From positions 53,396 to 117,395 of the IMG/VR virus record IMGVR_UViG_3300025117_000038: a stretch of DNA of 64,000 bases. One strand, written 5' to 3'. Below, one piece after another: positions 4,140 through 64,000 of the stretch (its first letter is position 1; every line of letters starts with the position of its first letter). The position numbers were made by a program, and so were the translations under genes. Below the pieces are notes generated by a model. That model was not told the origin of the DNA. It was given only the letters and a program-made list of their open reading frames with translations, and did not search any database. The stretch is from a virus.

Positions 4140-5027
4140 ATGGACATTAAAGATAGACAAGCATTGGCAAAAGCATTTGCAGAAGAAGCTGCGAGTGCTA
4201 TGGAAACTCCCGAAACAAGGGAAGCCTTTGCTACGAAGATTGTTAAATATCTTCGAATGGACGTTCAACAGCGCGACCTTGCAGAATTAATGTTGACTAA
4301 GGATTATTTTGAACTTGGACAAACGCCGGAATATACTGAGTTTGCCGGACTGAAAGCCCACTGGCATGAGCCGGGGTCATATGCACCAAGAAGTGCCATG
4401 ACTCGTAAGGTTTTTACTGTTCCGACAGACATGATAAGTGTCCATCCAGAATATGAATTAGGGCAACTTAAATCTGGTCGCTACGGAACGATTTTAGACC
4501 AAATGGATTCAGCGAGAGATGAAATCCTCGGAGCTACCAATGCTCTTGTTTTTAACACTATTAAGGGGTCGATTGTGTCTGGTGATGCTAACTATTTCGC
4601 CGCAAGTGGACAGGTTACATTAGCGGCACTTGACCAAGCTATTAGTTGGGTTAATGACCACTCTAATGGTGTTAAGGCTATTGTCGGAAGGCGTAGCAGG
4701 TTGGATAAGATTCTTGGTTTGAATACAACCAGTGGTCCTTATTCTGATAGAATTTTGGACGAAATCATGAGAACCGGAGTTTTGTCAATTTATAAGGGTG
4801 CTCCTGTTATTGGACTACCTCAATACTACGACGGTTTCGGTCAAGCTACAATATCCCCTGACGATATTATCGTTCTTGGTGATAATGTTGGCCGTTATGT
4901 TGTAAAAGAGGAAGTTCAACAAATGAACGATATCGACATTGATACACTAAATTGGCATATGCATGTGTGGAGTAGACTCGGTTGCGCGATTTTCAAGCCC
5001 GAAAGAGCTGCACGTATTTATATGTAA
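4140..5027 (+). CDS. Major capsid protein (HK97 fold)
   Basis: About 295 aa, with HK97-like C-terminal signature GVLSIYKGAPVIGL...WSRLGCAIFKPERAARI. GGAGG RBS and expected gene order. Confidence 0.75.
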   Translation: MDIKDRQALAKAFAEEAASAMETPETREAFATKIVKYLRMDVQQRDLAELMLTKDYFELGQTPEYTEFAGLKAHWHEPGSYAPRSAMTRKVFTVPTDMISVHPEYELGQLKSGRYGTILDQMDSARDEILGATNALVFNTIKGSIVSGDANYFAASGQVTLAALDQAISWVNDHSNGVKAIVGRRSRLDKILGLNTTSGPYSDRILDEIMRTGVLSIYKGAPVIGLPQYYDGFGQATISPDDIIVLGDNVGRYVVKEEVQQMNDIDIDTLNWHMHVWSRLGCAIFKPERAARIYM

Positions 5028-5034
5028 TTTTAAA

Positions 5035-5056
5035 GGGGGAATTATCCCCCATTATT
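5035..5056 (+). terminator. Probable intrinsic terminator hairpin after MCP
   Basis: ggggga-attat-ccccc followed by attatt (weak U tract). Confidence 0.5.
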
Positions 5057-5070
5057 AGGAGGAATGGAAA

Positions 5071-5691
5071 ATGGACGAGAAGAAAAGAGGAAGACCGAAA
5101 GGAAGTAAAAATAAATCAAAAGATAATCAAACATCTGTTGAAGTTACGCAACAGGAAAATAACAAGAGAATTGTCTTAAGACCAGTCAATGAAAGTGGTC
5201 GATTTATTAATTCCGAAGGCGTTCTATATGAAGAAAAAGTTTTTTATAGCTTTAAGAATAGATTAAAAGGTGCATTTTTTTATAAGGGTGATGACGGTTC
5301 CGATAAAAAAATCGATGGACTAACAATCAGAAATGACATTACCCCAAGAGAAAGAGAAGATATTACCGGATGTCACGCATTTCAAGAAGGTTTTATAGTA
5401 GAGTGGGCTGATGATACTGTTAAGCCTACGAATTATAATGCCATGAGTGACAGGCAAATAGATGCAGTTATGAAAGAGTATGGTTTATTAGAAGATAAAG
5501 ATAAATTCAAAAACTATATTAACAGTATGACATCTATTTTTTCTCTTGAATATTTTAGGGACAAAGTAAAAGATACTTTACCGGGTTCGATTATAACATA
5601 TATTGACAGTCGCATTGGCGAATTAAGAGAAGCTGAATATGCGAAGTTAGCTGTCAACAAAAAAGAATATAAACAAGGTTTAAAAAAATAG
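5071..5691 (+). CDS. Hypothetical protein with N-terminal AT-hook-like KRGRPKGSKNK
   Basis: Long ORF with RBS AGGAGG. Confidence 0.55.
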   Translation: MDEKKRGRPKGSKNKSKDNQTSVEVTQQENNKRIVLRPVNESGRFINSEGVLYEEKVFYSFKNRLKGAFFYKGDDGSDKKIDGLTIRNDITPREREDITGCHAFQEGFIVEWADDTVKPTNYNAMSDRQIDAVMKEYGLLEDKDKFKNYINSMTSIFSLEYFRDKVKDTLPGSIITYIDSRIGELREAEYAKLAVNKKEYKQGLKK

Positions 5692-5705
5692 AAAGGAGAT
5701 TATAG

Positions 5706-6329
5706 ATGGCAGCTACTTGGGAAGTTACTGGTATCGCTGGAGATAGTAATACCGCTACTGCTGGGGCTGTTAGGGTTCCCATTAATGCTACGTCAGCAAT
5801 TGCATTTGGTGGTGGAACGAGGGGAACCGCATTATTAACGGCAATTCAAAAAGATGAAGTCGCGATGTCGATGCATATTTGCGATGCCGCATCAGAATCT
5901 GCTCATGATAGATGTGCTAGTCCTCATATGCATGTAATGGCATATGCAGCAACGGCAGGATATTGCTATAATGATACCGTATACGAAGCTATTTCGGTAG
6001 CATCTCCTCCAGCAGCAAGGGGTATTGAGTTTAGATTTGGATTTGATTCAGACGTTGAAATTACAGCATGTACAATTCATGCTGGAACTGGTGCTAATGT
6101 TGATGGTATGACTGAAAATTGTGGAATTTATTTTTGTGAAAGAAGCAATAGCAGTGCAGTGTGTGGGCAAGTTACATGGAGCAGAGCTTTTTACGGAAGT
6201 GCCTTAAGTCTACATCCATTTTCAACGGCAGCAAATTCAAGAGATTGGTATGTTGGAATTTCATTAAAAGCAACCGCAGTTGGTTTTGAGTCTGATAATA
6301 AAATTAAAATTGAAGCAACTTATCAATAG
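5706..6329 (+). CDS. Putative virion structural protein
   Basis: A/G/T-rich beta composition, RBS AAGGAG. Confidence 0.45.
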   Translation: MAATWEVTGIAGDSNTATAGAVRVPINATSAIAFGGGTRGTALLTAIQKDEVAMSMHICDAASESAHDRCASPHMHVMAYAATAGYCYNDTVYEAISVASPPAARGIEFRFGFDSDVEITACTIHAGTGANVDGMTENCGIYFCERSNSSAVCGQVTWSRAFYGSALSLHPFSTAANSRDWYVGISLKATAVGFESDNKIKIEATYQ

Positions 6330-8822: not shown

Positions 8823-11800
8823 AATAGGGACATATAAAAGATGGGGTCATGCCGACTACTTTACCATTGGAGATAGTCTTTCTGGTGCTAATTACGGTGG
8901 ATTGGGTCATAAATTTACCGGGAGAGGGAAAGAATTATACGGTATTTATTATGGGTATTACAATATAAACACAGCAAGTAAAACAACCAGTTATTTAAAT
9001 TGGTGGTTAGCTTCTGTGACTGGGAGTGGAACCCCTGGTACAATCTTGGGGTCAAGTGGAGCTATTGCATTAGGAACGGAAGATGCTTGGAATTTTAGAG
9101 ATATACCGAATAGTGCTGGAACTGGTCATGTTACACTAAATAGTGGTGTAAATTATTGTGTTTATTGTACTCTTGGGGCTGGATGGGGAACTAAGTCTGC
9201 TCATTATACAACATATTTTTGTAAACAACCTTTGGCAAATGGTATTATTCATGTGTCATCTGGGGAAAGTTGGATTGCTACTACTGACCCTAACTTTGAT
9301 GGTATTACAACTCCACCTTATTCACTGTCTCCTACATGGTCAGATAGAAATGCCATGTGGCCGATTATGTGTAGAAATACAGATGAATCCCTCTATGGTC
9401 ACGGATATTTAGATGAATACCAAGTAACTGAATCACAAGTTACGGATTATTTCCCAGTTTTTTATAATGATACCAATCGTAAGGTTGTCGGGGCTGGCTA
9501 TTCTTATTGGTATGGAGCCACTAACTTTACTAATGTGGGAGATTTAAGATTTAGAATTATTGAGGGACGAGATAATACCGACCCAACTGATATTGTTGGT
9601 ACGTCATTTACTATTAAACACTCCGCTTATTTTAATAATCTTTCTTCGGCATATGTTTCAACATCGTTAAGTGAAGCATCAATATACCCGGCTTCTGGTG
9701 GAATTTTGCTTGAAGCTGGTAAATGGTATACAGTGGGGTTCTATTCATGCAGTGCTTATCCAACAAGAATAGGGGGGACTGATGCCCATATTTATTCTCA
9801 ACTTGCCACTACTTTAACTTATGATAGTGGAAATTCATATGTATACAAAAAATCAACTACCACAAGGAAAACTACTCATGATTTTCCTTATTATTTAGAA
9901 GTTGAAGATTATTATTCTTTAGCGTCTGTATACGGATATGTTTATTATTCCGATTATACAAAACCAATACAAAATGGACTAATAGATATATATTATAGTG
10001 GAGAACTACAAATGACAACAACATCTGATGCGTCTGGGTATTATGAAGCCATTGCATCAACAGGTGGAATAACTCTTATCCCAAGGAAATATGATTTTGA
10101 TTTCAATCCACAATATTATAATATTAATTTACAAAACAAAACAGAACAATTAATTTATGCAAGTAGTCAATCTAAGTGGTGGAGCTATAGTAGTCCCACT
10201 GGGAAGGGTTCTTTATTTGCTTTTAGAGATTTAATATCCTTCACATCAAACCATGGAACAATTCCAAAGGGATACACCGTTAAAATAGAATTCCCCACTG
10301 GATATCAGGAAAGATTTGCCACTTCTGCATATTTTAATGAATCTATTCAACACTCCATGGGACAAGGAATTATTTACTGTGATGGTAAGATACATGCATG
10401 TTATTTGGCTACTGGGGCAGGAGTAAGGGTCGCAACAAAAGACGAAACAACTAAAGAAATAACAGTTAATCGTATTTTTTCTAAGTCCGGCGTTGCTGTT
10501 TGGGATACCCATTACTATCCTAATTTAGTATCTAATAAAAATAATTATATATATGTTGGTGTTGCTGGACATAATTCCGGTAAATTGGATTTGTTAAAAA
10601 GCGTTAATCCAAATGATTTATCTGTAATGGAGTCTTCTGTTGATTTACTTTTTACTGACAATAATGCGTATCCAAGATTTAGATGTGATAATAATAATTG
10701 GATTAATTGTTTATTCAGATGGTATGTTGGTGGTGATGCTGGTCTAAAAATGGTAAGATTTAATGAAGATGTTTCTACGGTCATCCCAATGGGTTATGTC
10801 GCTTATTATGATAATGCTGAGGCTGCGGGAAATGCATCTATTTACATATGTGGTTTTAAAATTGACAGCGATAATGTCATTCATTGCGCTTTTAATTATT
10901 TTGATAATTATTTAATTAAAAATACCAGTCGTGCGATTGGGTATATGTATAGCCCACCAAACGTAAATGGAATTGCTACTCCTGGCTATTATTGGTTTAA
11001 CGCGAAAGGACATACTTGTTCGATATCTACTGGTCATGGATATACTGACCTATCAAGTGTTTTGGGTTTCATGGATGATGGAGAAAACCCAGAGTACAAT
11101 CCTTTTGTAATTTATTCTTGGGATAGTTCTCAAACCTATTACAATGCCAAAAAATATTATCACGGAAATACGGAATCCATGTTTATTCACCCCAATAAAA
11201 GAATAAACAATGGAATTCATAATATTCATATGCCGTATTTTACGTTTCATGCTTATCCTAATATAGATGCTGGTGGAAATGATATTAATAGAGAGGTAGA
11301 GGGATTTTTGGCATATTATGACCCAGAAAGTGAATTTGCTCAAACCGGAGTTGTTGGTGAAGGATGGGTTGTTAGTACCGTAACACATACAGCAAAAAGT
11401 GTTAATGGAACTGGCCAATTAGCATGGAAGGGTCGACATTGGGGGGGTATGGCTATTGACAATACCCCAGAAATACATATTTATGGGTTCATTAAACCTT
11501 CTGGAAAAAACTGGTTTGGTGGTGAGTTATGTGAATGGACTTCTGTTGATGATGGTGCAACATGGAAACATAAATTAATTACAAATAACTCTGGTTATGG
11601 AATTGGAATGTTGTCGGTAAAACCAGATTTTTCAAATGATTCTATAGAATTGGTGTATGGGCGCGGATATGATATTATGTATTATTCTGATGTAAAAAAA
11701 TACGACAGGATAAGAGAAGATGGCGAAGATATAAGGGTAGTTTATTCGGGTGCTTCATCCAATGCGATAGAATTGTCCAGATTAAACGATTTTATGGGAA

Positions 11801-24410: not shown

Positions 24411-25811
24411 ATGACCGAAAATATCAAATACACAAGGGTTGCACTTACCATTGATGGTGTTCAAGCCCATCGTGTACAAAACCTAGGAAGCTCTGGAGAT
24501 ATTCCCACCGAAAAACTAAAGGAATTAACTAATAGAGGTTCTACAGAAATTAGAACAAGTCTTCCTGCAATCAATGTTACTATAGATACCAACGATATCG
24601 GTTCTACCGACACACTGGCGTTAGTTTCCGATAAGATGATAGATAAAACATTGGCTACGGAGACAAATGGCCCAAGGGGTGGGTTTTTCAGAAATTATAT
24701 TAAAAATGCTTCATCTAATGCTACCGAGAGAACAATTACCGCAGATGATTTGCTTGATTGCTATTGTGATTTTATGATTCCTATTACTGAAGACGGAACC
24801 AACATCACAAGGGCGGCTTGGATTCATCGTGCCTCGATTAGTGGTTTATCGTGGAGTTATGATGTTAATGGATACGCATCCGAAAACTATTCGTTCACTG
24901 CCGATAACAAAAGGTGGTTCTTGAATGACTGGAAAGTTGCCAGAGTTTATAAACCCCACAATGTGGCTCAGAAGCATTCCGGTGATGCTACTACCCAAAC
25001 TTGGAATAATATGGCATCGGCAGTTCCTGATGGTTCAAAAATTCTTTATTATTGTAAGAACGAACATATTTATAGAAACTCAAAAGCTGGATACGGAAGT
25101 GGAACAGTTGAAATTTCCACCGCAGGAACATACAATGGTGTTGTTCATGCTGGTCAGATATGGGTTTCAACAAGTGGTGTTACACTAAACACCGCAGCTT
25201 CAACTGACGATGTTTACTTCGTATATGTTTGTACTGCCGCCGCAGCTTCGGCATGGGCAGAGGGAACAAAAGGCACAAAGGGTGTCGGTTACGATATCGT
25301 TTCTACATCTGGTTCTTTCGGTGGTATTACAAGAGAATACTTAGCAGCCTACTTATATAACACAGGTGGTCCTATCGGTGATACGGCTCTTCCATCAGAA
25401 CCTACCTTACGTTTACAATCTGTTAATATCGATTATTCTGCTACCGATGAAGAGTTGGTTCAGTTATCATACAAACGTAGATATGGTTATAGTAGGATTG
25501 ACCCCGTTTTTACAATTACTGTTTCTGCTAATGATTCAGATTTAGATATGTTCGCAAGAGCTTGTGCTACTTCTGATGCTTCAGCCAAGACCATTAGTAT
25601 GGATGATTTCACAAGAACCAATAAATTGGTTGTTAAAACCTATAAAGATGAAAACAGAACACAACTTGTCAGAACCATGACAATTTCTGATTTAGCGGTG
25701 TCGAGTGAGAATTGGAATGTTAGTGTTGGAGGTAACGCATCACAAGAATTTACATTCACTGCCGATAACATTTCTGTTGTTGGTAATGACGTAAGTTTAA
25801 CTGGATATTAA
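24411..25811 (+). CDS. Major tail (tube) protein
   Basis: HRVQNL and RLQSV halves, each ending A.E.Y/F.FTADN (internal duplication). Followed by a terminator and the chaperones. Confidence 0.65.
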   Translation: MTENIKYTRVALTIDGVQAHRVQNLGSSGDIPTEKLKELTNRGSTEIRTSLPAINVTIDTNDIGSTDTLALVSDKMIDKTLATETNGPRGGFFRNYIKNASSNATERTITADDLLDCYCDFMIPITEDGTNITRAAWIHRASISGLSWSYDVNGYASENYSFTADNKRWFLNDWKVARVYKPHNVAQKHSGDATTQTWNNMASAVPDGSKILYYCKNEHIYRNSKAGYGSGTVEISTAGTYNGVVHAGQIWVSTSGVTLNTAASTDDVYFVYVCTAAAASAWAEGTKGTKGVGYDIVSTSGSFGGITREYLAAYLYNTGGPIGDTALPSEPTLRLQSVNIDYSATDEELVQLSYKRRYGYSRIDPVFTITVSANDSDLDMFARACATSDASAKTISMDDFTRTNKLVVKTYKDENRTQLVRTMTISDLAVSSENWNVSVGGNASQEFTFTADNISVVGNDVSLTGY

Positions 25812-25816
25812 AAATA

Positions 25817-25838
25817 GGGGGGAATAACCCCCCATTAT
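25817..25838 (+). terminator. Probable intrinsic terminator after major tail gene
   Basis: gggggg-aataa-cccccc-attat, closely resembling the hairpin after the MCP. Confidence 0.5.
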
Positions 25839-25852
25839 AACGGAGGAAAGTA

Positions 25853-26584
25853 ATGGACGGGAAAAACGATAATTCCGGTATTATGGCAAAGGTAGAACAG
25901 GAATTGCTTCAAAAATTCAGAATTATTCATTTATCAAAATTCAAAGATAAAGAAAATTTTGATGTTTATATTCATCTACCTAATGTTGAAGAACAAACAT
26001 TAATATCTGATTATTATTCACAAATCTTCAATAATCTTTTAATTGACCCCAATAATAAATTACTTACAGAAAAAAGAATGGTAGAAGTTCTTAAAGAAAA
26101 GGGGATATGGACTAAGAGAGATGACGAAGAAATGGAGAGCCTAAGAAAGCAACTTACCAATCTTGAGATTGATATTCTGGAATACAAAAGACATAATAAT
26201 AACAAAGAAGTTATTGAAAAATTTGAAGAAGATTATAATAATCTTAGAAATAAAGTCATAGACAAGGCTATGCAAAAAGAGGGGTTTTTATCACATACTA
26301 TTGATAAAAAAGCTGAATCTAAATCAAGAATGTATCAAATAGTCCTATGTGTTAAAGACTCCGATGGAAATCAATTATGGAAAACGATAGATGAACTTGG
26401 GAAAGAAAATAGTACCGCAGGTGTCGCAGAGATAATCGCTGAAAGTCAATTGTTTTACAGTGGCTTAAGCAAGGAGGTACTACAGTGGCTCCCGAAGCGA
26501 TTATTCGAACAGGATGATACTTCGGGAGCGATACCCTTGGAAGAATTGCAAGAAAACCAAGATGGCAAAGAGCCTACAGTATAA
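25853..26584 (+). CDS. Tail assembly chaperone (G-like)
   Basis: Helical charged protein between tail tube and tape measure. Confidence 0.6.
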   Translation: MDGKNDNSGIMAKVEQELLQKFRIIHLSKFKDKENFDVYIHLPNVEEQTLISDYYSQIFNNLLIDPNNKLLTEKRMVEVLKEKGIWTKRDDEEMESLRKQLTNLEIDILEYKRHNNNKEVIEKFEEDYNNLRNKVIDKAMQKEGFLSHTIDKKAESKSRMYQIVLCVKDSDGNQLWKTIDELGKENSTAGVAEIIAESQLFYSGLSKEVLQWLPKRLFEQDDTSGAIPLEELQENQDGKEPTV

Positions 26585-31471: not shown

Positions 31472-31876
31472 ATGGCTAATTGTATATTAACTTCAGCAAC
31501 TCCAACTGCTGAATACACACTACCGTATAATCCATCGTTTTATACAACAGATGAAGATGAAACAATTTTATCAAAAAAAATTCTACACGGTGCTCCAGTT
31601 TGGCATGAAGTTAAATTCGATAACAGAATAAGAGCCTTATCTTGGAGTGGTTACGAAGCATCTAATTCTGATATTCAGGGAATTGTTACATTTTTTAAAA
31701 ATAAAAAGGGTATGACTTATTATATAAATTTTCAGGATATGGATACAATGAATTTATTGTGGCCCACAAACGACACATGGAAAAAAATAAGAATAGTAAA
31801 TATAACATCGTCATTCAGGAAAGGTGGCACTATAGTTTATGATAACATTTCATTAACTATCCAGCCAGAGGAATAA
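31472..31876 (+). CDS. Distal tail-like protein
   Basis: Small ORF right after the TMP; LPYNPS...LSWSG. Confidence 0.5.
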   Translation: MANCILTSATPTAEYTLPYNPSFYTTDEDETILSKKILHGAPVWHEVKFDNRIRALSWSGYEASNSDIQGIVTFFKNKKGMTYYINFQDMDTMNLLWPTNDTWKKIRIVNITSSFRKGGTIVYDNISLTIQPEE

Positions 31877-31877
31877 A

Positions 31878-34800
31878 ATGATAGAAAGAATTGATATTCC
31901 AGATAAAAATAGTTTCGAAAATGATTTAGATGGTGTTCAACCGTATTATAGTAAAAGAGCCATCCCTATTTCATTAATTAAATACACTAATACCGTAAGA
32001 ACGGTTAAGAACGATGGCATTACCATGGATTGTTATCGGTCTACTTCTAATGCTATCAATATGATTAATACATCGTTTAGTGGCGTTACCCCAATTGTTA
32101 AATTTTATTATTCGAATGGTTTACCACCATTCTTTACAGCCAATGATTCCGGGATAAACTGGGCCACTAAATATAGAATGAAGTTTTTTGCTCCATATAC
32201 TGGAAATTACACTTTGGCTTTTGGCGGTTCTGGTGAAATTTCCAATGTTTATATTGATAATTCAAAAAAACAAATTCAAAGGGGTAATGAAAATGGCGAT
32301 AGTATTATTTTACATTATAACGATACCAGTTATGGCATAGCTACATCGTCATTCTCGTCAGAAACATGGCATAGTATTTCTTTTTTATATAATGCATACA
32401 AACAAACCAATAATTCGTATGGATTAATAGCCATGTGGAAATCGGACAATAGTGAAACTCCAAATTACATTCCATTATCAGCAGGGGTTTGTGCTCCAAT
32501 AAACCAAGATACATCTGACGCTGATGATGGTGAAACCATAAAATCCCATACGGCTTATTACTATTCTAATATAAATTACTCTGTCAAAAAAGAACAAATA
32601 GCTACACTAACATTTGACATCCCATTAATGGCATCGACAACAGTTTACGCTGGAGGATACAAACACACTTCTAATGGATTTATAGATACCGTTCATAATA
32701 TTACATTACAACAAGACCGAATGGTGGAATATTATGAGGGGTATAGAATATATCATAATGATAATTTTGCGATAGACGCCAGTGCTTGTAGTTATATAGA
32801 GGTCCCATACCATCAATCTCTTGCTTGTACGGCAGGTGGAATTACTCTTGAGTCCTGGGTAAAAGTAAGCCCAGGTTGCAATGGTGGATATGTTATTACC
32901 AAGCCATACCAAAATGCGGATGGTGCGGCGGCAGAATATGCCATGTATATAAGCAATACTGGTGGTATTACCTTTAATATGTATGGGGAGGGGTATACCT
33001 ATGATACTGATATTAGGGATAATTTGTGGCATCACATTGTTCTTAGTGCTAATGGCTCTATCTGGAACTGGTACATCGATGGAAGCTCGGCGAAATCACA
33101 AACAACGACGAAAGTACCGGGAAATGTAAATAGCAAAAACATAAGATTTGGGGCCAATATTCTTGGAACTAATCATCTTGAATCTGTTATAGATGAAATA
33201 AAAATATTCGGGAGAGGACTTTCATCGGCAGAAGCCAAATATCACTATAATAATGGAAATGGCAGAAGAAATGTTTATTCCACCGAACAACTAAGGGGTT
33301 ATTGGAGATTTTCCGAGGGAAGTGGAACAGTTGTTAATGACTCCTATAACACAAATCATGGAAGTATTTCTGGAATAACGTCATCAACGTGGATTACTGG
33401 CAAAATATCTGAAAGAGATGAATATGTTAAAAAATTTACTGGTCATATAAAAGATTTCAAAACTAATTATAAAACCGATGAAATAGATTCGATTCAAGTA
33501 TATTGCGAAGATTTTACTTCATTTATGAAAGAGTCTTTTAATGTTTACTCTCCTAGCTATATGGATTATATCCAAGTTGGATATACCACTAAAAGAGGGG
33601 AATTGCCCAATAAATCTGTTGAGGGGATAGGTAAACCAAAAACATTCGATGGATGGGAATTATATAAAGTCATGCATGTTCTTATGACAGAATCGTTTAT
33701 CGACCCGTATTTATTTTATAAACATAAAATACATACAGACAACTATGGATGCTCCATAAATGGTAATTTCAAAATAAGATGGACTAACTCCACTTCCAAT
33801 ATTTTAAAAATGGATACAAGAGAATATTATGGGAACCCAAATGTAATTAGTGGTGATGGGAATGTGCCTGATGATGCATATATAAATACGGCTGGATTTG
33901 GAGAATATTACTATGATATTGCAATGAATTTATTATCTCCATTCTATATAGATTTTTATTTTGACAGATATGGGCATCCATTTATGTTCCCATATAATAC
34001 TCCAACATCGATAACTCATATATCGTCATTCGATGGGGTTAACAGTTTTTCTAGTACTGAATCGATAAAGTATTTATTTGGAGAGTACTACCACACCACT
34101 GCCACTGTTACTTCCTCGGCTGATTTTACTGGGAAAAGAATTGATGTAGTTTGTGGGGTTTCTCCAAATAGTGGAGTGATTTCCCCAGAGTCTGATGAAT
34201 ATAGCCTAAAAATAACTATAAAAAATAACGGGAATACCATAAGTACACAATATTTAAACTTATATTATGCAACTACATGGGGATATAATAATGGAATTGC
34301 TCCTACGCTTGGATATAATCCATCGGTTTTTAAATTAACGAATTTAATGGCTTACGATACCTATAGAATAATTTTTGAAACAAATCCCGATGGAACTTCA
34401 TATGATATCGCTCTTAATGGTATTATGACTTATGATGAAAACTATGAAACAGGAAATGTTGTTATAGAAACCGATGATTCAAATAGTCGTGGCGGTATTA
34501 CAAATCTATCAATTGAAGACTCTGTTAAAGATACCCGCAATGAGGTTTATGTTTACGGTGCATTAAGAGGGGTTGTTTATACAAAAGACACCGATGGGAA
34601 TAGAAGCGACGTTAATCCCAATAACCCTATTTATAATTATTATTATTCGATTTCAAGAGATATAAATTCTATTTATACATCAACCGCTTTTAATTATAGA
34701 GGTAGGCCGATAAGGATTTTAATTCAAGACCCAAAAATAAGTAACAACACTCAAGCTGATATGGTTAGTTATAATATTCTTCAAACCTATAGACAAAAAC

Positions 34801-61224: not shown

Positions 61225-62290
61225 TATTTTGTTCCTTTATGAAACTTAAAATATGGGTAATTACATCCACCGTCCATCCATTTCCAATCATTTTATATCT
61301 CTGTGTATCACTCATCATTTTTTTGTTAAACGGAACCAATGTATAATTATCGGGAATAGTTTGAAGTCGTTCACATTCCAACGGAGACAATCTTCTCCAT
61401 CGGATATTATTAATAGCTATTTTTGGTTCTCTGTTTCCACCATTCATGGAATTAACGGTAGGACATTTTCCATTAATGTCATAAATTCTTTTTAATATAT
61501 CATGTCCGTTTATATTGGCAATTCCAACTTGTTTGCAATTGTGACTATTTACTTTTACTTTAGGTGCATTTGAGCTTCCTATTCCCCTTCCTCTTATTCC
61601 GGTTCCGGCACTTAATGTTTTTGATTTACCGGAGATATCATATATATTTCCATTCTGACCTGTTTTTGGATAAATATTTCCAACAATGTTAACAGTATTA
61701 TTAATTGGAACATATGAATACTTAAGATAATTTATACTATTATACATTTTATTTTCTTTATCATGTTCAATAATATCCTTAATAAATATATGTTTGTCGG
61801 ATGGGTCAACAATATTGGGAATATTAGTCCAATATAATCGGAATCTATTCTGAGCCGAAACTAATGAAGAGTTTATTTCATGTGGTTCTACTTTCATTAT
61901 TTGTGTAATTGTATCTCTCCATTCTTTTTTCATTCCCACGTTTTCAAGAAGAAAGTAAGTAGGTTTAACCTCTTCCAAAATTCTGACAAATTCAAAAAAC
62001 AGACGACTACGCGGGTCATTAAAATTTAATCCGCTTCCTGATTTTGAGAATCCCTGACAGGGACTGCCACCCATTAAGATATCGATAGTAGGAAGTTTGT
62101 CCGGCTTAATATTACAAACATCTCCAAGCTGTATCGTCTTAGGGTAATGATATTGTGTAACAGCTATGGCGTATCTATCAATTTCACTTGCGTAATAGTT
62201 ATTGATTGGGATTTGTAGCTTATTTAGAGCAATTTGTCCACAGCTTATCCCATCAAATAAACTTAAAACATTCATTTCATCCTGCTCCAT
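61214..62290 (-). CDS. dcm: C5-cytosine DNA methyltransferase
   Basis: LSLFDG, GGSPCQGFS, ENV, QNRFRLYW, ECERLQ, IGNGW. Confidence 0.93.
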   Translation of the reverse strand: MEQDEMNVLSLFDGISCGQIALNKLQIPINNYYASEIDRYAIAVTQYHYPKTIQLGDVCNIKPDKLPTIDILMGGSPCQGFSKSGSGLNFNDPRSRLFFEFVRILEEVKPTYFLLENVGMKKEWRDTITQIMKVEPHEINSSLVSAQNRFRLYWTNIPNIVDPSDKHIFIKDIIEHDKENKMYNSINYLKYSYVPINNTVNIVGNIYPKTGQNGNIYDISGKSKTLSAGTGIRGRGIGSSNAPKVKVNSHNCKQVGIANINGHDILKRIYDINGKCPTVNSMNGGNREPKIAINNIRWRRLSPLECERLQTIPDNYTLVPFNKKMMSDTQRYKMIGNGWTVDVITHILSFIKEQNNVE

Positions 62291-62301
62291 TAATTATACG
62301 C

Positions 62302-62433
62302 TTAATATTTAATTACTGCCAAATCTCCGATAACTGCTTCTGGCATACCGTCATAATGACGATAAATTAACGCTACCCAATCTGTTAGAATAGCATCATC
62401 TTCATAGAAACCAATTTGACATCTTGTGGGCAT
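62302..62433 (-). CDS. 43-aa ORF, short or truncated member of the phage M.TR..I...Y.H.DG.P family
   Basis: MPTRCQIGFYEDD...LIYRHYDGMPEAV, AGGAG RBS. Confidence 0.5.
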   Translation of the reverse strand: MPTRCQIGFYEDDAILTDWVALIYRHYDGMPEAVIGDLAVIKY

Positions 62434-62548
62434 TTGTATTCTCCTTATTATACCTTGTTTCATTTATTATACGCCAATGAGAGAGGAATCAATCAAAAAT
62501 CTTTATCATATACAAAATTAGTCTATATTAATGGAACCACCCCGTTTA

Positions 62549-62657
62549 TAACTTATTGATATTGTTAATGTTACACATGTGGACATTTTTTGGCAACAAA
62601 CACTTTCGAAAATGTAGAAATTAATAATTTTGTAAGTCGTTATTGTTCAATAAATTA
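62549..62657. repeat. Inverted pair of 27-bp motifs in the divergent control region
   Basis: 62549-75 taacttattga-N11-ttaca versus reverse complement of 62631-57 taatttattga-N11-ttaca. Confidence 0.6.
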
Positions 62658-62688
62658 AAAAATTTTTTATTTTTTTTAATTAAGCCTA

Positions 62689-62716
62689 TTGTTTTATGGT
62701 CGATAATCGTTATAAT
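62689..62716 (+). promoter_or_regulatory. Sigma70-like promoter for the ncRNA locus
   Basis: TTGTTT (62689-94), 16-nt spacer, perfect TATAAT (62711-16), preceded by an A/T UP-like tract. Confidence 0.6.
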
Positions 62717-62717
62717 A

Positions 62718-62935
62718 GTGACGCGAAAGCACTTGTTGTTTTGACAACTGAATCAGTCTGTAACGTCATCACTTGCGAGTGGTGGGTTGGCGCATGAAGT
62801 CCGACATACGACAGGCGAACAGATGGATAAAGTTTATCATTGCTTTGATAGCGAAGATATACGAAGCGGTCAGACCGCCTTTTTAGGATAATACAAACGG
62901 TATCTTGGCGCAGAGGATGATAAAAAGAAACCATT
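62718..62935 (+). ncRNA. Structured non-coding RNA domain of unknown class
   Basis: GC-richer than flanks. Stems gc-gaaa-gc, gttgtt/gacaac, gtctgt/acaggc enclosing catcact/agtggtg and gttgg/ccgac; atgg/ccat, tttatcat/atgataaa, aagatat/gtatctt, gcggt/accgc. Confidence 0.55.
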
Positions 62936-62991
62936 AAACAAATGAAAAATTATTAAATTTCATATAAAGATTTTTATTGTAGCACATTCAA

Positions 62992-63065
62992 GGCGGGAAA
63001 TGGTGGTTCGAATCCCCTCTCTCCTTAATTGGGGAGATAATATAATGGATAGTATACCCGCCGTC
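62992..63065 (+). ncRNA. Circularly permuted tRNA-like domain (3' half precedes 5' half; Asp-like)
   Basis: GGCGGG-AAAT-GGTGG-TTCGAAT-CCCC-TCTCTCC, linker TTAATT, then GGGGAGA-TA-ATAT-AATGGATA-GTAT-A-CCCGCC-GTC. Confidence 0.7.
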
Positions 63066-63237
63066 TACACTTGAAAGGACGAAACTTAAAAGATGAAATT
63101 ATGGGGATGAAGTAATGGTAACTTATTGGGCTTTCTGGTTTGTTCACTCAAACTGGTACAATCCCAAGTTGTGAGGTTCGATTCCTCACTCCCCATTATT
63201 TCAATGCATCATAGAGTGTACTGATGAGTCCGATGCA
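63063..63237 (+). ncRNA. Hammerhead-ribozyme-like core in non-circularly permuted strand order (cleavage site, GAAA, CUGAUGA)
   Basis: GTC-TACACT (63063-71) pairs with AGTGTA-CTGATGA (63215-27). GTCC (63228-31) pairs with GGAC-GAAAC (63077-85). Confidence 0.65.
63101..63196 (+). tRNA. tRNA-like gene with a 32-nt hairpin-containing insert in place of the 7-nt anticodon loop
   Basis: ATGGGGA/TCCCCAT acceptor, AAGT-AATGGTA-ACTT D arm, TTGGG/CCCAA anticodon stem, GTGAGG-TTCGATT-CCTCAC T arm. No encoded CCA and no assignable anticodon. Confidence 0.65.
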
Positions 63238-63241
63238 AAAG

Positions 63242-63417
63242 AGAATTGAGTGCATCTGAAAACGGGGTGTAAGTATCTTCCATAGCAGAGGGGTGCAAAT
63301 GCACTATGCGTTTCAAACGGGTAATATAATCGGGTGCGTCCTCGCCCGAATGGATACGGCCTCACCATTCAATACGAATGGCTCGGACTACGAGAACCGA
63401 GGGATGCACTCAATTCT
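63242..63417 (+). ncRNA. Multibranch RNA domain closed by a perfect 15-bp stem
   Basis: agaattgagtgcatc (63242-56)/gatgcactcaattct (63403-17). Inner stems gtgca/tgcac, ccattc/gaatgg, ctcgg/ccgag. Confidence 0.6.
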
Positions 63418-63430
63418 TTATTTCGATTAT

Positions 63431-63587
63431 GCCCTTGTAGCTCAGTGGTAGAGCGCATCGTATGTATGGTATATGTACATATATCGTAGATACAGTCGTC
63501 CCGTAAGACGACAGGTGGTCAAAGGTAGGGAAGTAGTAATGCATGACGAAACCCTATCAAGCGTAGGTTCGAATCCTATCGAGGGCA
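63431..63587 (+). tRNA. tRNA-like gene (Thr-like body) with 108 nt of structured sequence replacing anticodon and variable arms
   Basis: GCCCTTG/CGAGGGC acceptor plus discriminator A, GCTC-AGTGGTA-GAGC D arm, GTAGG-TTCGAAT-CCTAT T arm. Confidence 0.7.
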
Positions 63588-63642
63588 TCCTTTTTAAGAT
63601 AATATAAATTAAATCTGATACAAAACCTTACAGGAGAATGTT

Positions 63643-63846
63643 ATGAAAGACACAAGTTACGAAAAATTTCTTGCGATTCGCAAGAATCTTGCTGAAATAG
63701 TCGATATTTCATATCGACTTGGTTCGCGTCAATATAATAGCGATAGGAGTCTTCAAACTTCTATTAAGAGATTGACGAAAAAATTGGGTGAAAAAATTAC
63801 CGAACAACAGGTAAACGAAATCATTGATGGTGTAATAACATCTTAA
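63643..63846 (+). CDS. Small hypothetical (early) protein
   Basis: AGGAG RBS, 67-aa ORF. Confidence 0.55.
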   Translation: MKDTSYEKFLAIRKNLAEIVDISYRLGSRQYNSDRSLQTSIKRLTKKLGEKITEQQVNEIIDGVITS

Positions 63847-63857
63847 AAGGAGACAAA

Positions 63858-64000
63858 ATGTTACCATGTATTTTTTTTCAAACTCCAAAGACAATTATTC
63901 TTCACAATGAAAATTATCCCTATATTGAGCGATTGGACAATATAATAGGGATTGAAGAATATGGACACCCAAAAGGAGAATATACTTTTCACTTGAAAAA
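63858..64000 (+). CDS. Hypothetical protein, 3' truncated by window end
   Basis: AAGGAG RBS; MLPCIFFQTPKTIILHNENY... is open to the end. Confidence 0.5.
   Translation, partial: MLPCIFFQTPKTIILHNENYPYIERLDNIIGIEEYGHPKGEYTFHLK

What the first reader, a model, noticed from the sequence alone, without database searches (positions are those of the whole stretch)
62718..63590. ~870-nt composite ncRNA in which every tRNA-like domain lacks a normal anticodon loop
Seen: one promoter, no convincing + strand ORF, and five successive structured domains. Three keep D- and T-loop consensus (the tRNA elbow) but have the anticodon opened, extended or replaced. Inference: selection keeps the elbow and acceptor while discarding decoding. 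That fits decoys for anticodon nucleases or tRNA-sensing defences, T-box/RelA/synthetase mimics, or RNase P/Z punctuation marks that cut a long precursor into functional RNAs. Size and phage-tRNA context recall GOLLD/ROOL, but I could not match their motifs by eye.
Basis: partly seen in the sequence, partly recalled or inferred. Interest (0 to 1): 0.8.

Follow-up and report, generated by a model that had tools for sequence, protein, structure and literature searches.

The report
Phage tRNA-mimic island with hammerhead
A gene-free stretch of an environmental phage encodes a chain of tRNA-shaped RNAs that cannot read codons, built around a rearranged self-cutting hammerhead ribozyme, so it looks like a self-processing set of tRNA look-alikes and not one giant RNA.

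Summary
The observation largely holds, but "one ~870-nt RNA from one promoter" does not.

- **Module A (62720-62885):** it has its own promoter motif and terminator, folds no better than shuffles (z -0.59) and may carry a 30-codon ORF.
- **Modules B, C and E:** these are real tRNA look-alikes without a decoding loop.
  - B is circularly permuted.
  - C has a 32-nt "anticodon loop".
  - E is the only Rfam hit (tRNA, 43.9 bits), with about 101 nt in place of the anticodon arm.
- **New finding:** B, C and D are organised around a complete hammerhead core in the rare non-circular "type-SGC" order (Eckert et al. 2023).
  - Predicted cut: C63065|U63066.
  - The motif occurs once in the genome, in 1 of 500 shuffled genomes, and in none of 202 other loci.
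- **Module C is optional:** it sits in the ribozyme's variable linker, and a contig from an RNA library of a 98%-identical relative lacks exactly these 111 nt.
- **Genome context:** the genome closes to a circle. RtcB lies 5.2 kb downstream on the same strand. No Ro60-type gene was found.
- **Limits:** I found no homologues of the RNAs, so there is no covariation evidence and function is inferred.

Best reading: a self- and RNase P-processed set of non-decoding tRNA mimics plus one unknown RNA (D).

This scan noted the SGC core on this same stretch before, and chained tRNA mimics beside RtcB in other phages.

The parts
62708..62717 (+). Promoter-like -10 motif CGTTATAATA upstream of module A
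   Evidence: CGT(T)ATAATA occurs 3 times in the genome. All three lie upstream of units: here, the divergent 53-aa gene, and a tRNA-like RNA in the tRNA cluster. The consensus scanner did not flag it.
62720..62885 (+). Module A: short promoter-to-terminator unit, either an sRNA or a small mRNA. Candidate 30-codon ORF at 62794-62886 behind GGUGGG; terminator at 62866-62885.
   Evidence: Terminator-like site. Fold z -0.59. ORF listed as part of 62773..62886. No Rfam match above 16 bits.
62978..63062 (+). Module B: circularly permuted tRNA-like unit. Order of parts: outer helix UGUAG.AC, GGCGGG, variable AAAU, T arm, 3' acceptor UCUCUCC, loop UUAAUU, 5' acceptor GGGGAGA (G3:U70), D arm, CCCGCC.
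   Evidence: Coordinates. ARAGORN calls a tRNA once the halves are re-ordered in a script. Fold z -1.85. The T stem has a U-C mismatch and the acceptor/T stack is one pair short, as read from the sequence.
63063..63085 (+). Hammerhead blocks S and G: GUC| (cut predicted after C63065), stem I strand UACACUU, 4-nt linker GAAA, stem II strand GGAC, GAAA, C15.2.
   Evidence: Motif scans. Layout compared with Eckert et al. 2023 (PMC10085705, sections 13, 14, 18).
63094..63203 (+). Module C: tRNA-like unit on a 14-pair stalk, nested in the ribozyme's variable linker. It has a 7-bp acceptor, a 6-bp T stem and a 5-bp anticodon stem. That stem encloses 32 nt with an 8-bp hairpin.
   Evidence: Fold. ARAGORN calls it in intron mode only. 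Exactly 63093-63203 is missing from an RNA-library contig of a 98% relative.
63206..63236 (+). Hammerhead block C inside a bridging helix: GCAUC, AUA, stem I strand GAGUGUA, CUGAUGA, stem II strand GUCC, GAUGC.
   Evidence: The bridging helix is in the minimum-energy fold. It matches the helix that joins the other sides of stems I and II in type-SGC ribozymes.
63239..63425 (+). Module D: multi-branch domain closed by a 17-pair helix (63240-56 with 63403-19, one G-U). UUUCG at 63421-25 can pair with CGAAA at 63080-84.
   Evidence: Fold z -5.17 for 63080-63425. No Rfam family: the best hit is a chance miRNA match at 15.1 bits. The 3 differences in the relative fall in a hairpin loop (2) and a terminal pair (1).
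63431..63587 (+). Module E: tRNA body whose halves are closest to the phage's own tRNA-Thr. The anticodon arm is replaced by a 4-bp stem bearing two hairpins. A 7-bp hairpin follows in variable-arm position, with an AGUA/GAA loop. A U-run follows at 63588-96.
   Evidence: Rfam tRNA 43.9 bits against a gathering score of 29. Fold z -3.55. Both halves score best against tRNA-Thr (14 and 16).

Best explanation
The stretch is an RNA island at the head of the rightward gene block of a complete, circular ~117-kb phage genome. It is not one RNA.

**Layout**
- A short separate unit (A) comes first.
- A multi-module precursor (B to E) follows and is cut into pieces.

**Processing**
- A hammerhead ribozyme in the non-circularly permuted type-SGC order cuts after C63065.
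  - This releases the permuted tRNA-like B with a 2',3'-cyclic phosphate end.
  - The downstream RNA starts with a 5'-OH.
- B's "anticodon" helix stacks on the ribozyme's 2-pair stem III.
- The ribozyme's variable linker carries an optional second tRNA look-alike (C).
- D follows as a separate folded RNA.
- E is freed at its 5' end by RNase P and ends at a U-run.

**Products**
The products are stable tRNA-shaped RNAs that keep elbow and acceptor but cannot decode, plus the unknown D RNA.

**What is shown and what is inferred**
- Shown: the anatomy, the ribozyme core and its rarity by chance, the optional nature of C, and the RtcB gene nearby.
- Inferred: self-cleavage, RNase P/Z processing, and that the mimics engage tRNA-binding factors such as tRNA-targeting defences or repair.
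For: **tRNA-like units**
- establish the three units.

**Hammerhead core**
- All core letters are canonical: CUGAUGA, GAAA, A15.1-U16.1, C15.2-G16.2 and a GUC site.
- Stem I has 7 bp and stem II has 4 bp. A 4-nt S-to-G linker and a 5-bp bridging helix are present.
- This matches the validated type-SGC layout (PMC10085705).
- With any strand order, the motif has 1 hit in the genome; 9 of 100 shuffled genomes have at least one.
- In SGC order it has 1 locus; 1 of 500 shuffled genomes has a hit. There are 0 hits in 202 other loci, 2,243,085 bases.
- Its GGACGAAAC and CUGAUGAGUCC flanks are those of an abundant phage type II hammerhead group.

**RNA-library contig (run X10)**
- It joins 63080-63092 directly to 63204-63358 with 3 differences.
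- It starts 14 nt 3' of the predicted cut.

**Fold scores**
-.

**Genome context**
- The genome closes to a circle.
- RtcB scores 244 bits and lies 5.2 kb downstream on the same strand.
Against: - **No homologues.** None was found for any module, so there is no covariation evidence.
- **Short stem III.** It has only 2 pairs before its strand enters B's helix. Stacking on B is my inference.
- **Post hoc motif.** I defined the motif after seeing the site.
- **Competing helix.** B's outer helix (UGUAG/CUACA) competes with stem I.
- **Limits of the RNA contig.** It is a single assembled contig of depth 5, so it cannot show a true 5' end. DNA can be present in an RNA library.
- **Imperfect tRNA bodies.** B's T stem has a mismatch, and Rfam does not call C as a tRNA even at E <= 10.
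- **Missing promoter.** No promoter for B to E was identified.
- **Function.** Nothing ties the mimics to any partner.
Confidence: 0.5

Rival explanations
1. Graveyard reading. B, C and E are decaying copies of the phage's own tRNA genes, disrupted by insertions and rearrangement. The hammerhead letters are the wreck of an ordinary type II ribozyme. Nothing here is selected.
For: - Pieces of B, C and E match the phage's tRNA-Leu, tRNA-Met and tRNA-Thr.
- B's T stem is mismatched.
- C is dispensable in a relative.
- A is not structured.
Against: - The D-loop GG and the T-loops are intact in all 3 units.
- The inserted parts are themselves well folded (z -3.55 and -5.17).
- Within 62700-63640, only one site (63066) combines a GUC triplet, a G able to pair with C15.2 and a 7-bp stem I strand. 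It lies 4 nt from block G.
- In SGC order the motif appears in only 1 of 500 shuffled genomes.
- A contig from an RNA library covers the core.
- The 3 differences in the relative avoid helix interiors.
Confidence: 0.15
2. Split or intron-bearing tRNA genes that mature into decoding tRNAs. Ribozyme or nuclease cuts would be sealed by the phage's RtcB. For B that means circularisation followed by opening at the acceptor loop, as in permuted tRNA genes of a red alga. For C and E it means removal of the inserts.
For: - RtcB is in the same gene block.
- The hammerhead would leave the cyclic phosphate end that RtcB needs.
- B re-ordered with its next 7 letters as the loop is called a tRNA with U33.
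- The genome holds another tRNA(CTA) with a 35-nt insert.
Against: - No second ribozyme or other source of a 5'-OH end lies upstream of B: no CUGA occurs in 62886-62991, as read from the sequence.
- No splicing endonuclease is present.
- No excision of C or E restores a unique canonical loop.
- The genome uses the standard code: 24 of 127 ORFs end in TAG.
- No CCA-adding enzyme is present.
- The anticodon follows from my choice of loop letters.
Confidence: 0.1
3. One large ornate RNA of the GOLLD/ROOL kind. B to E would act as a single folded, perhaps multimeric, RNA with tRNAs nested in it. The hammerhead-like core would be structural only.
For: - Size and phage setting fit.
- C is nested and optional.
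- AUGCAU is a self-complementary six-letter word that occurs both in E's loop and at 63204-09.
Against: - No GOLLD or ROOL match at E <= 10.
- Each module closes on its own terminal helix.
- The ribozyme core is complete, not partial.
Confidence: 0.1
4. C is removed at the RNA level (an excised tRNA-like "intron") and is not absent from the relative's DNA.
For: The junction was seen in an RNA library. It removes exactly the stalked unit plus one A, with a 3-letter ATG ambiguity. RtcB is present.
Against: - The junction lies 7-8 nt outside the tRNA ends, so RNase P/Z cannot make it.
- No known nuclease site is present.
- A deletion between ATG repeats across a hairpin is an ordinary DNA event.
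- Contigs cannot tell RNA from DNA variants.
Confidence: 0.1

Closest known systems
Type-SGC hammerhead ribozymes (non-circular permutation; Eckert, Friedrich, Weinberg & Weinberg, NAR 2023, PMC10085705; outline and sections 13, 14, 15, 18 read)
   Same: - Block order is S, G, C.
- All core letters are present.
- A short linker (typically 3 nt; 4 nt here) joins stem I to stem II.
- A helix joins the other sides of stems I and II around block C.
- A variable stretch lies between block G and that helix.
   Different: - It lies in a dsDNA phage, between tRNA look-alikes.
- Stem III is 2 pairs and continues into a tRNA-shaped body.
- The variable stretch is 120 nt here against a reported 0-44 nt, because it holds module C. 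It is 9 nt in the C-less form.
- Cleavage was not tested.
Phage and prophage type II hammerheads (Perreault et al. 2011, PMC3088659, passages read)
   Same: It shares the stem II and core flanks GGACGAAAC and CUGAUGAGUCC and the GUC site, with a 7-bp stem I. These features occur in 142 of 147 IMG/VR matches. The proposed role is also shared: cutting long phage transcripts.
   Different: The strand order is not a circular permutation. No Rfam Hammerhead_II match was found in this genome at E <= 10.
YrlA-type bacterial and phage Y RNAs bound by Ro60/Rsr
   Same: B has the same rotated order: the anticodon-stem end is open, the acceptor is closed by a loop, and the elbow is kept.
   Different: The complete genome holds no TROVE or DUF2828 gene. 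No Rfam Y-RNA match was found at E <= 10. B is fused to a ribozyme.
GOLLD and ROOL ornate phage RNAs (Kretsch et al., bioRxiv 10.1101/2024.12.08.627333, passages read)
   Same: Phage-borne, large, close to tRNA genes, with a nested tRNA in a linker.
   Different: There is no sequence or structure match. The architecture here is modular, with a cleavage site inside.
Theta (HDV-like) ribozymes next to phage tRNAs (Kienbeck et al. 2024, PMC10879173; search listing and start of abstract only)
   Same: A self-cleaving ribozyme directly joined to a phage tRNA-type RNA.
   Different: The ribozyme class differs. Here the neighbour is an anticodon-less, permuted mimic, and the phage is not recoded.
Circularly permuted tRNA genes of Cyanidioschyzon merolae (recalled; cited in the introduction of PMC10085705)
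   Same: The 3' half is encoded before the 5' half.
   Different: Those genes are circularised by a splicing endonuclease and a ligase and become decoding tRNAs. Here there is no endonuclease and no evidence of rejoining.

Membership tests
tRNA (Rfam RF00005), applied to module E | Score above the gathering threshold with acceptor, D and T arms | tested here: met
   43.9 bits against a threshold of 29, covering model positions 1-71.
tRNA (decoding), applied to B, C and E | A 5-bp anticodon stem with a 7-nt loop | tested here: not met
   ARAGORN at default finds 0 of the 3. E has about 101 nt in place of the arm. C has a 32-nt loop and B an open end.
Type-SGC hammerhead | CUGAnGA, GAAA, a UH cleavage site, and the A15.1-U16.1 and 15.2-16.2 pairs | tested here: met
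Type-SGC hammerhead | Block order S, G, C with a short linker from stem I to stem II | tested here: met
   The linker is GAAA, 4 nt. The paper gives typically 3 nt.
Type-SGC hammerhead | A helix that joins the other sides of stems I and II | tested here: met
   GCAUC 63206-10 pairs with GAUGC 63232-36 in the minimum-energy fold.
Type-SGC hammerhead | Stem III formed between blocks S and G | tested here: inconclusive
   Only 2 pairs form. The strand then pairs within B.
Type-SGC hammerhead | Site-specific self-cleavage; covariation in the stems | not testable with these tools
   No homologues were found and no bench work was possible. The paper's covariance models sit in closed supplements.
Hammerhead type II (Rfam RF02276) | Match to the model | tested here: not met
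   No match in the genome at E <= 10. Caution: the model reported none of the 14 GGAC...GUCC pattern matches in 4 IMG/VR loci at its gathering score.
YrlA / Y RNA with Ro60 | A Ro60 (TROVE) or Ro60-like gene in the genome; an Rfam match | tested here: not met
YrlA / Y RNA with Ro60 | A tRNA-like domain in rotated order | tested here: met
   Module B.
GOLLD / ROOL | Match to the Rfam models | tested here: not met
   No match at E <= 10 in 62500-63700.
tmRNA (one- or two-piece) | ARAGORN or Rfam call; tag reading frame | tested here: not met
   ARAGORN finds none. Only an 11.5-bit T-arm fragment matches. B does carry G3:U70.
DUF7873-linked twin tRNA-mimic RNA (earlier notes of this scan) | A ~245-aa DUF7873 gene directly upstream on the same strand | tested here: not met
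   The upstream genes lie on the other strand: a 53-aa ORF and a C5 methylase. The rest of the genome was not scanned for this family.

The most novel reading that the evidence does not exclude
The ribozyme is not mere punctuation. It is fused to a tRNA-shaped body so that self-cleavage falls where positions 34 and 35 of an anticodon loop would lie. The product would be a mimic of an anticodon-nuclease-cut tRNA, ending in a 2',3'-cyclic phosphate. Together with the phage RtcB encoded 5 kb downstream, this mimic would act in one of three ways: as bait for host tRNA-damage sensors or nucleases, as a substrate that RtcB re-joins (a ribozyme-plus-RtcB RNA rearrangement), or as a trigger of repair. 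The loop of module C (CACUC) would compete for the stem I strand and so act as a switch on cleavage.
Probability: 0.12. Interest if true: 0.9.

Novelty: new variant of a known kind. Interest (0 to 1): 0.66.

Why it matters
- Type-SGC hammerheads were first found in metatranscriptomes during a search built around hairpin ribozymes, which the authors place in circular-RNA agents. A copy in a dsDNA phage would widen where and how this rearranged ribozyme is used. Here it shares its flanks with ordinary phage type II hammerheads and is welded to tRNA look-alikes. It would also give a natural case for how the permutation arose.
- It gives a concrete, testable processing route for the "chained tRNA-mimic" RNAs that this scan keeps finding in phages.
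- It puts a ribozyme that makes cyclic-phosphate ends next to a phage RtcB. That makes the open question of what phage RtcB acts on directly testable.
- If the mimics bind tRNA-targeting defence or repair factors, this would be a new class of phage counter-defence RNA.

Tried and rejected
**Homologue searches that gave nothing**
- blastn of the region against phage records found no match.
- blastn of D gave one 19-nt chance hit. blastn of A gave 12 short chance hits.
- IMG/VR scans with the 67-aa, 53-aa, RuvB-like and methylase neighbours found no relatives.
- IMG/VR scan with E's 3' end found 0.
- A RuvB alignment gave 80 loci, all at 37% identity or less. They are not kin and served only as background.
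- The metagenome scan returned one contig, identical to the window.
- The GTDB genome scan gave one hit, which I read as chance: no GGACGAAAC was visible in the 411 nt I read.
- A short-gap core pattern found 0 in IMG/VR.
- Protein search shows that relatives exist: a 94%-identical 67-aa protein and RuvB-like proteins at 45-51% identity. I could not fetch their contigs.

**Readings rejected**
- An ordinary type II hammerhead: no S strand lies between blocks G and C.
- An ordinary type III hammerhead: it would need an extra A in GAAA and a bulged stem II (read by eye).
- A K-turn or C/D box (by eye).
- A two-piece tmRNA.
- TAG recoding.
- E as a second hammerhead substrate: position 16.1 would be A (by eye).

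**Results that carry no weight**
- X7 and X8 small shares were AT-rich or generic tRNA pieces from other organisms, plus short identical pieces.
- Parts without cover in X10 say nothing.
- The 6 runs that hold the stretch at 0.98-1.00 of its words are labelled groundwater or soil. All are marked as possible sources, so they are not independent support.
- The paper search for decoys turned up nothing relevant.
- "Not in print" claims rest only on searches. The supplements of PMC10085705 were closed and may already list phage or tRNA-linked type-SGC examples.
Full report
**Setting**

The window is the right 64 kb of a 117,395-nt virus contig. A metagenome contig identical to window 61807-64000 runs on into contig positions 140-2845. 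Contig 14-139 repeats 117270-117395. The genome therefore closes to a circle of about 117.26 kb and is complete, whatever the 68% estimate shown with the record.

The flagged stretch lies in the gap between two gene blocks. On the left is a leftward replication block: RuvB-like, clamp-loader-like, methylases and a deaminase. On the right is a rightward block of small genes. The rightward block continues across the contig junction to an ECF-like sigma factor, RtcB (244 bits) and a radical SAM protein. RtcB starts 5.2 kb after module E on the same strand.

The genome uses the standard code: 24 of 127 ORFs of 100 aa or more end in TAG. It has 12 ordinary tRNA genes in a separate cluster.

**Checking the observation**

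No ORF in 62718-63590 exceeds 52 aa (+ strand) or 74 aa (- strand). None of the 6 ORFs tested matches a PHROG family. The whole stretch folds better than all 20 shuffles, z -4.07.

The stretch is not one unit:
- A promoter-like motif, CGTTATAATA, lies at 62708. It is one of 3 copies in the genome, all upstream of units.
- A terminator-like hairpin plus U-run at 62866-62885 closes off module A.
- A folds no better than shuffles, z -0.59.
- A carries a possible 30-codon ORF (62794-62886) behind GGUGGG.
- I found no promoter for the remaining modules.

**The three tRNA look-alikes are real**

- **E (63431-63587).** It is the only Rfam match above threshold in the whole window (tRNA, 43.9 bits). 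About 101 nt stand where 15 model positions of the anticodon arm should be. The insert folds into a 4-bp stem bearing two hairpins, followed by a 7-bp hairpin in variable-arm position, z -3.55.
- **C (63101-63197).** It has acceptor, D and T arms. Its 5-bp anticodon stem encloses 32 nt with an 8-bp hairpin, and the acceptor is prolonged by a 6-bp stalk. Rfam does not call it. ARAGORN calls it only in intron mode, with a forced fit.
- **B (62992-63062).** It is rotated: 3' anticodon strand, T arm, 3' acceptor, a 6-nt loop, 5' acceptor, D arm, 5' anticodon strand. ARAGORN calls a tRNA when a script puts the halves back in order. The anticodon in that call follows from my choice of loop letters. 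B carries G3:U70, a mismatched T stem and an acceptor/T stack one pair short.
- **Relation to the phage's own tRNAs.** Pieces of the three units match tRNA-Leu, tRNA-Met and tRNA-Thr only modestly.

**The hammerhead**

Between B and D the sequence holds CUGAUGA followed by GUCC. About 140 nt upstream it holds GGAC followed by GAAAC.

Of these, 142 are textbook type II hammerheads, with GUC (133) or GUA (9) sites and a stem I of 5-9 bp. In the window no cleavage-site strand lies between the two blocks.

A GUC followed by 7 nt complementary to the letters just before CUGAUGA lies upstream instead, 4 nt before GGAC. The order is therefore substrate, GAAA block, CUGAUGA block. This is not a circular permutation of the usual order.

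Exactly this order is the "type-SGC" hammerhead of Eckert et al. 2023. That paper predicts 583 examples, and 5 cleaved in vitro at the predicted site. Its layout has a linker of typically 3 nt from stem I to stem II and a helix that joins the other sides of both stems (PMC10085705, sections 13, 14, 18). The window has both features: the linker GAAA, and the helix GCAUC 63206-10 with GAUGC 63232-36 around block C.

A script that asks for the full core gave these counts:

| Scan | Real genome | Control |
|---|---|---|
| Any strand order | 1 hit | 9 of 100 dinucleotide-shuffled genomes have at least one |
| SGC order, linker of 2-6 nt | 1 locus | 1 of 500 shuffled genomes has a hit |
| SGC order, other phage and genome DNA | not applicable | 0 hits in 202 loci, 2,243,085 bases |

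Weak points:
- I defined the motif after seeing the site.
- Stem III is only A84:U64 and C85:G63. After that its strand becomes B's CCCGCC, which pairs with GGCGGG. I infer that B's helix stacks on stem III and serves as its extension.
- B's outer helix competes with stem I.
- Rfam's Hammerhead_II model finds nothing in the genome at E <= 10. The same model, at its gathering score, also reported none of the 14 pattern matches in 4 IMG/VR loci.

**Module C is optional**

In a sediment RNA library (run X10), one 170-nt contig of depth 5.1 reads 63080-63092 and then directly 63204-63358, with 3 differences. The 111 nt it skips are the stalked unit C plus one A, with a 3-letter ATG ambiguity at the joint.

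In the ribozyme map these 111 nt sit in the variable stretch between block G and the bridging helix. That stretch is 9 nt in the C-less form; the paper reports 0-44 nt.

I read this as a DNA difference between strains, such as a deletion or insertion across a hairpin between ATG repeats. RNA-level excision is not excluded.

The contig begins 14 nt 3' of the predicted cut. That is compatible with a cleaved 5' end but cannot prove one, because these are contigs.

The 3 differences fall in a 3-nt hairpin loop (2) and a terminal pair (1) of the predicted D fold.

**Module D**

D is closed by a 17-pair helix with one G-U (63240-56 with 63403-19). With its flanks it scores z -5.17. It matches no Rfam family and no phage record.

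**What I could not do**

I found no homologues of any module: searches gave nothing. There is therefore no covariation evidence, and the structure claims rest on one sequence plus one contig.

The complete genome holds no TROVE, DUF2828, splicing endonuclease or CCA-adding enzyme gene.

**Reading**

Most likely (0.5) this is a self-processing island. Unit A stands apart. The B-to-E precursor is cut by the type-SGC hammerhead after C63065 and by RNase P/Z at the tRNA-like ends of E, and perhaps of C. The products are non-decoding tRNA mimics and the D RNA.

The function of the products is inferred only. They keep the parts of a tRNA that many enzymes and defence nucleases recognise. The phage also carries RtcB, which acts on the kind of ends a hammerhead makes.

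Rival readings and their odds:
- a graveyard of broken tRNA genes (0.15);
- RtcB-dependent maturation into real tRNAs (0.1);
- one GOLLD-like ornate RNA (0.1);
- RNA-level excision of C (0.1).

**Relation to earlier notes of this scan**

I tested these here. Other genomes in the scan gave "chained tRNA-mimic RNA beside phage RtcB", DUF7873-linked and Ro60-like-linked tRNA mimics, and a hammerhead inside a prophage tRNA array. I did not test those.

Noticed in passing
contig ends (window 63875-64000 and contig 14-139); L004 1-4900: The contig closes on itself. A metagenome contig bridges the end to position 140, and 126 nt are repeated at both ends. The phage genome is therefore a complete ~117.26-kb circle, not a 68% fragment.
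   Followed up: yes
genome contig 4949-6034 (L003 1435-2589): A phage RtcB RNA ligase lies 5.2 kb downstream of the RNA island on the same strand. It is preceded by an ECF-like sigma factor and followed by a radical SAM protein.
   Followed up: partly
genome contig 10781-10823, 25661-25703, 17922 (-), and window ~59790 (-): Four copies of a ~32-bp element (ACTGAAGAAGTGAYAACTTC, 4 nt, GTTGTTCACTA). The hairpin cap of module C carries a similar TTTGTTCACT.
   Followed up: partly
genome contig 24752-24863 (-): A tRNA with anticodon CTA (amber suppressor type) carries a 35-nt insert in its anticodon loop, in a genome that shows no TAG recoding.
   Followed up: partly
genome contig 25590-26180 (-) and 31825-31926 (+): There are more odd tRNA-like RNAs in the tRNA cluster: a unit with two T arms closed by GGCAAAGUC/GACUUUGCC, and a tRNA frame with a ~110-nt insert. 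A 102-nt Rfam tmRNA match (49.8 bits) has no room for a tag-coding domain.
   Followed up: partly
window 63152-63156 and 63214-63218: The cap of module C's long arm (CACUC) is fully complementary to GAGUG in the ribozyme's stem I strand. It could compete with the substrate strand and act as a switch.
   Followed up: no
window 63539-63552 and 63077-63084 / 63204-63209: GACGAAAC and the self-complementary AUGCAU occur both in the loop of E's variable-arm hairpin and around the ribozyme's G block. E does not fit a hammerhead substrate.
   Followed up: partly
window 62794-62886: Possible 30-aa hydrophobic peptide (MKSDIRQANRWIKFIIALIAKIYEAVRPPF) behind GGUGGG. Its last codons run through the terminator of module A.
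   Followed up: no
L085, L090, L162, L184 (IMG/VR loci): An abundant phage type II hammerhead group with GGAC/GUCC stem II exceeds 120 loci. Rfam's Hammerhead_II model at its gathering score reported none of the 14 pattern matches in these 4 loci; its only 2 hits were at other sites in L184.
   Followed up: partly
window 62878-62893, 63589-63604; genome contig ~20511 (-): The motif TTTTTA(A/G)G(A/G)TAATA recurs after module A's terminator, after E, and once elsewhere. Its meaning is unknown (end of a terminator, or a promoter element).
   Followed up: no
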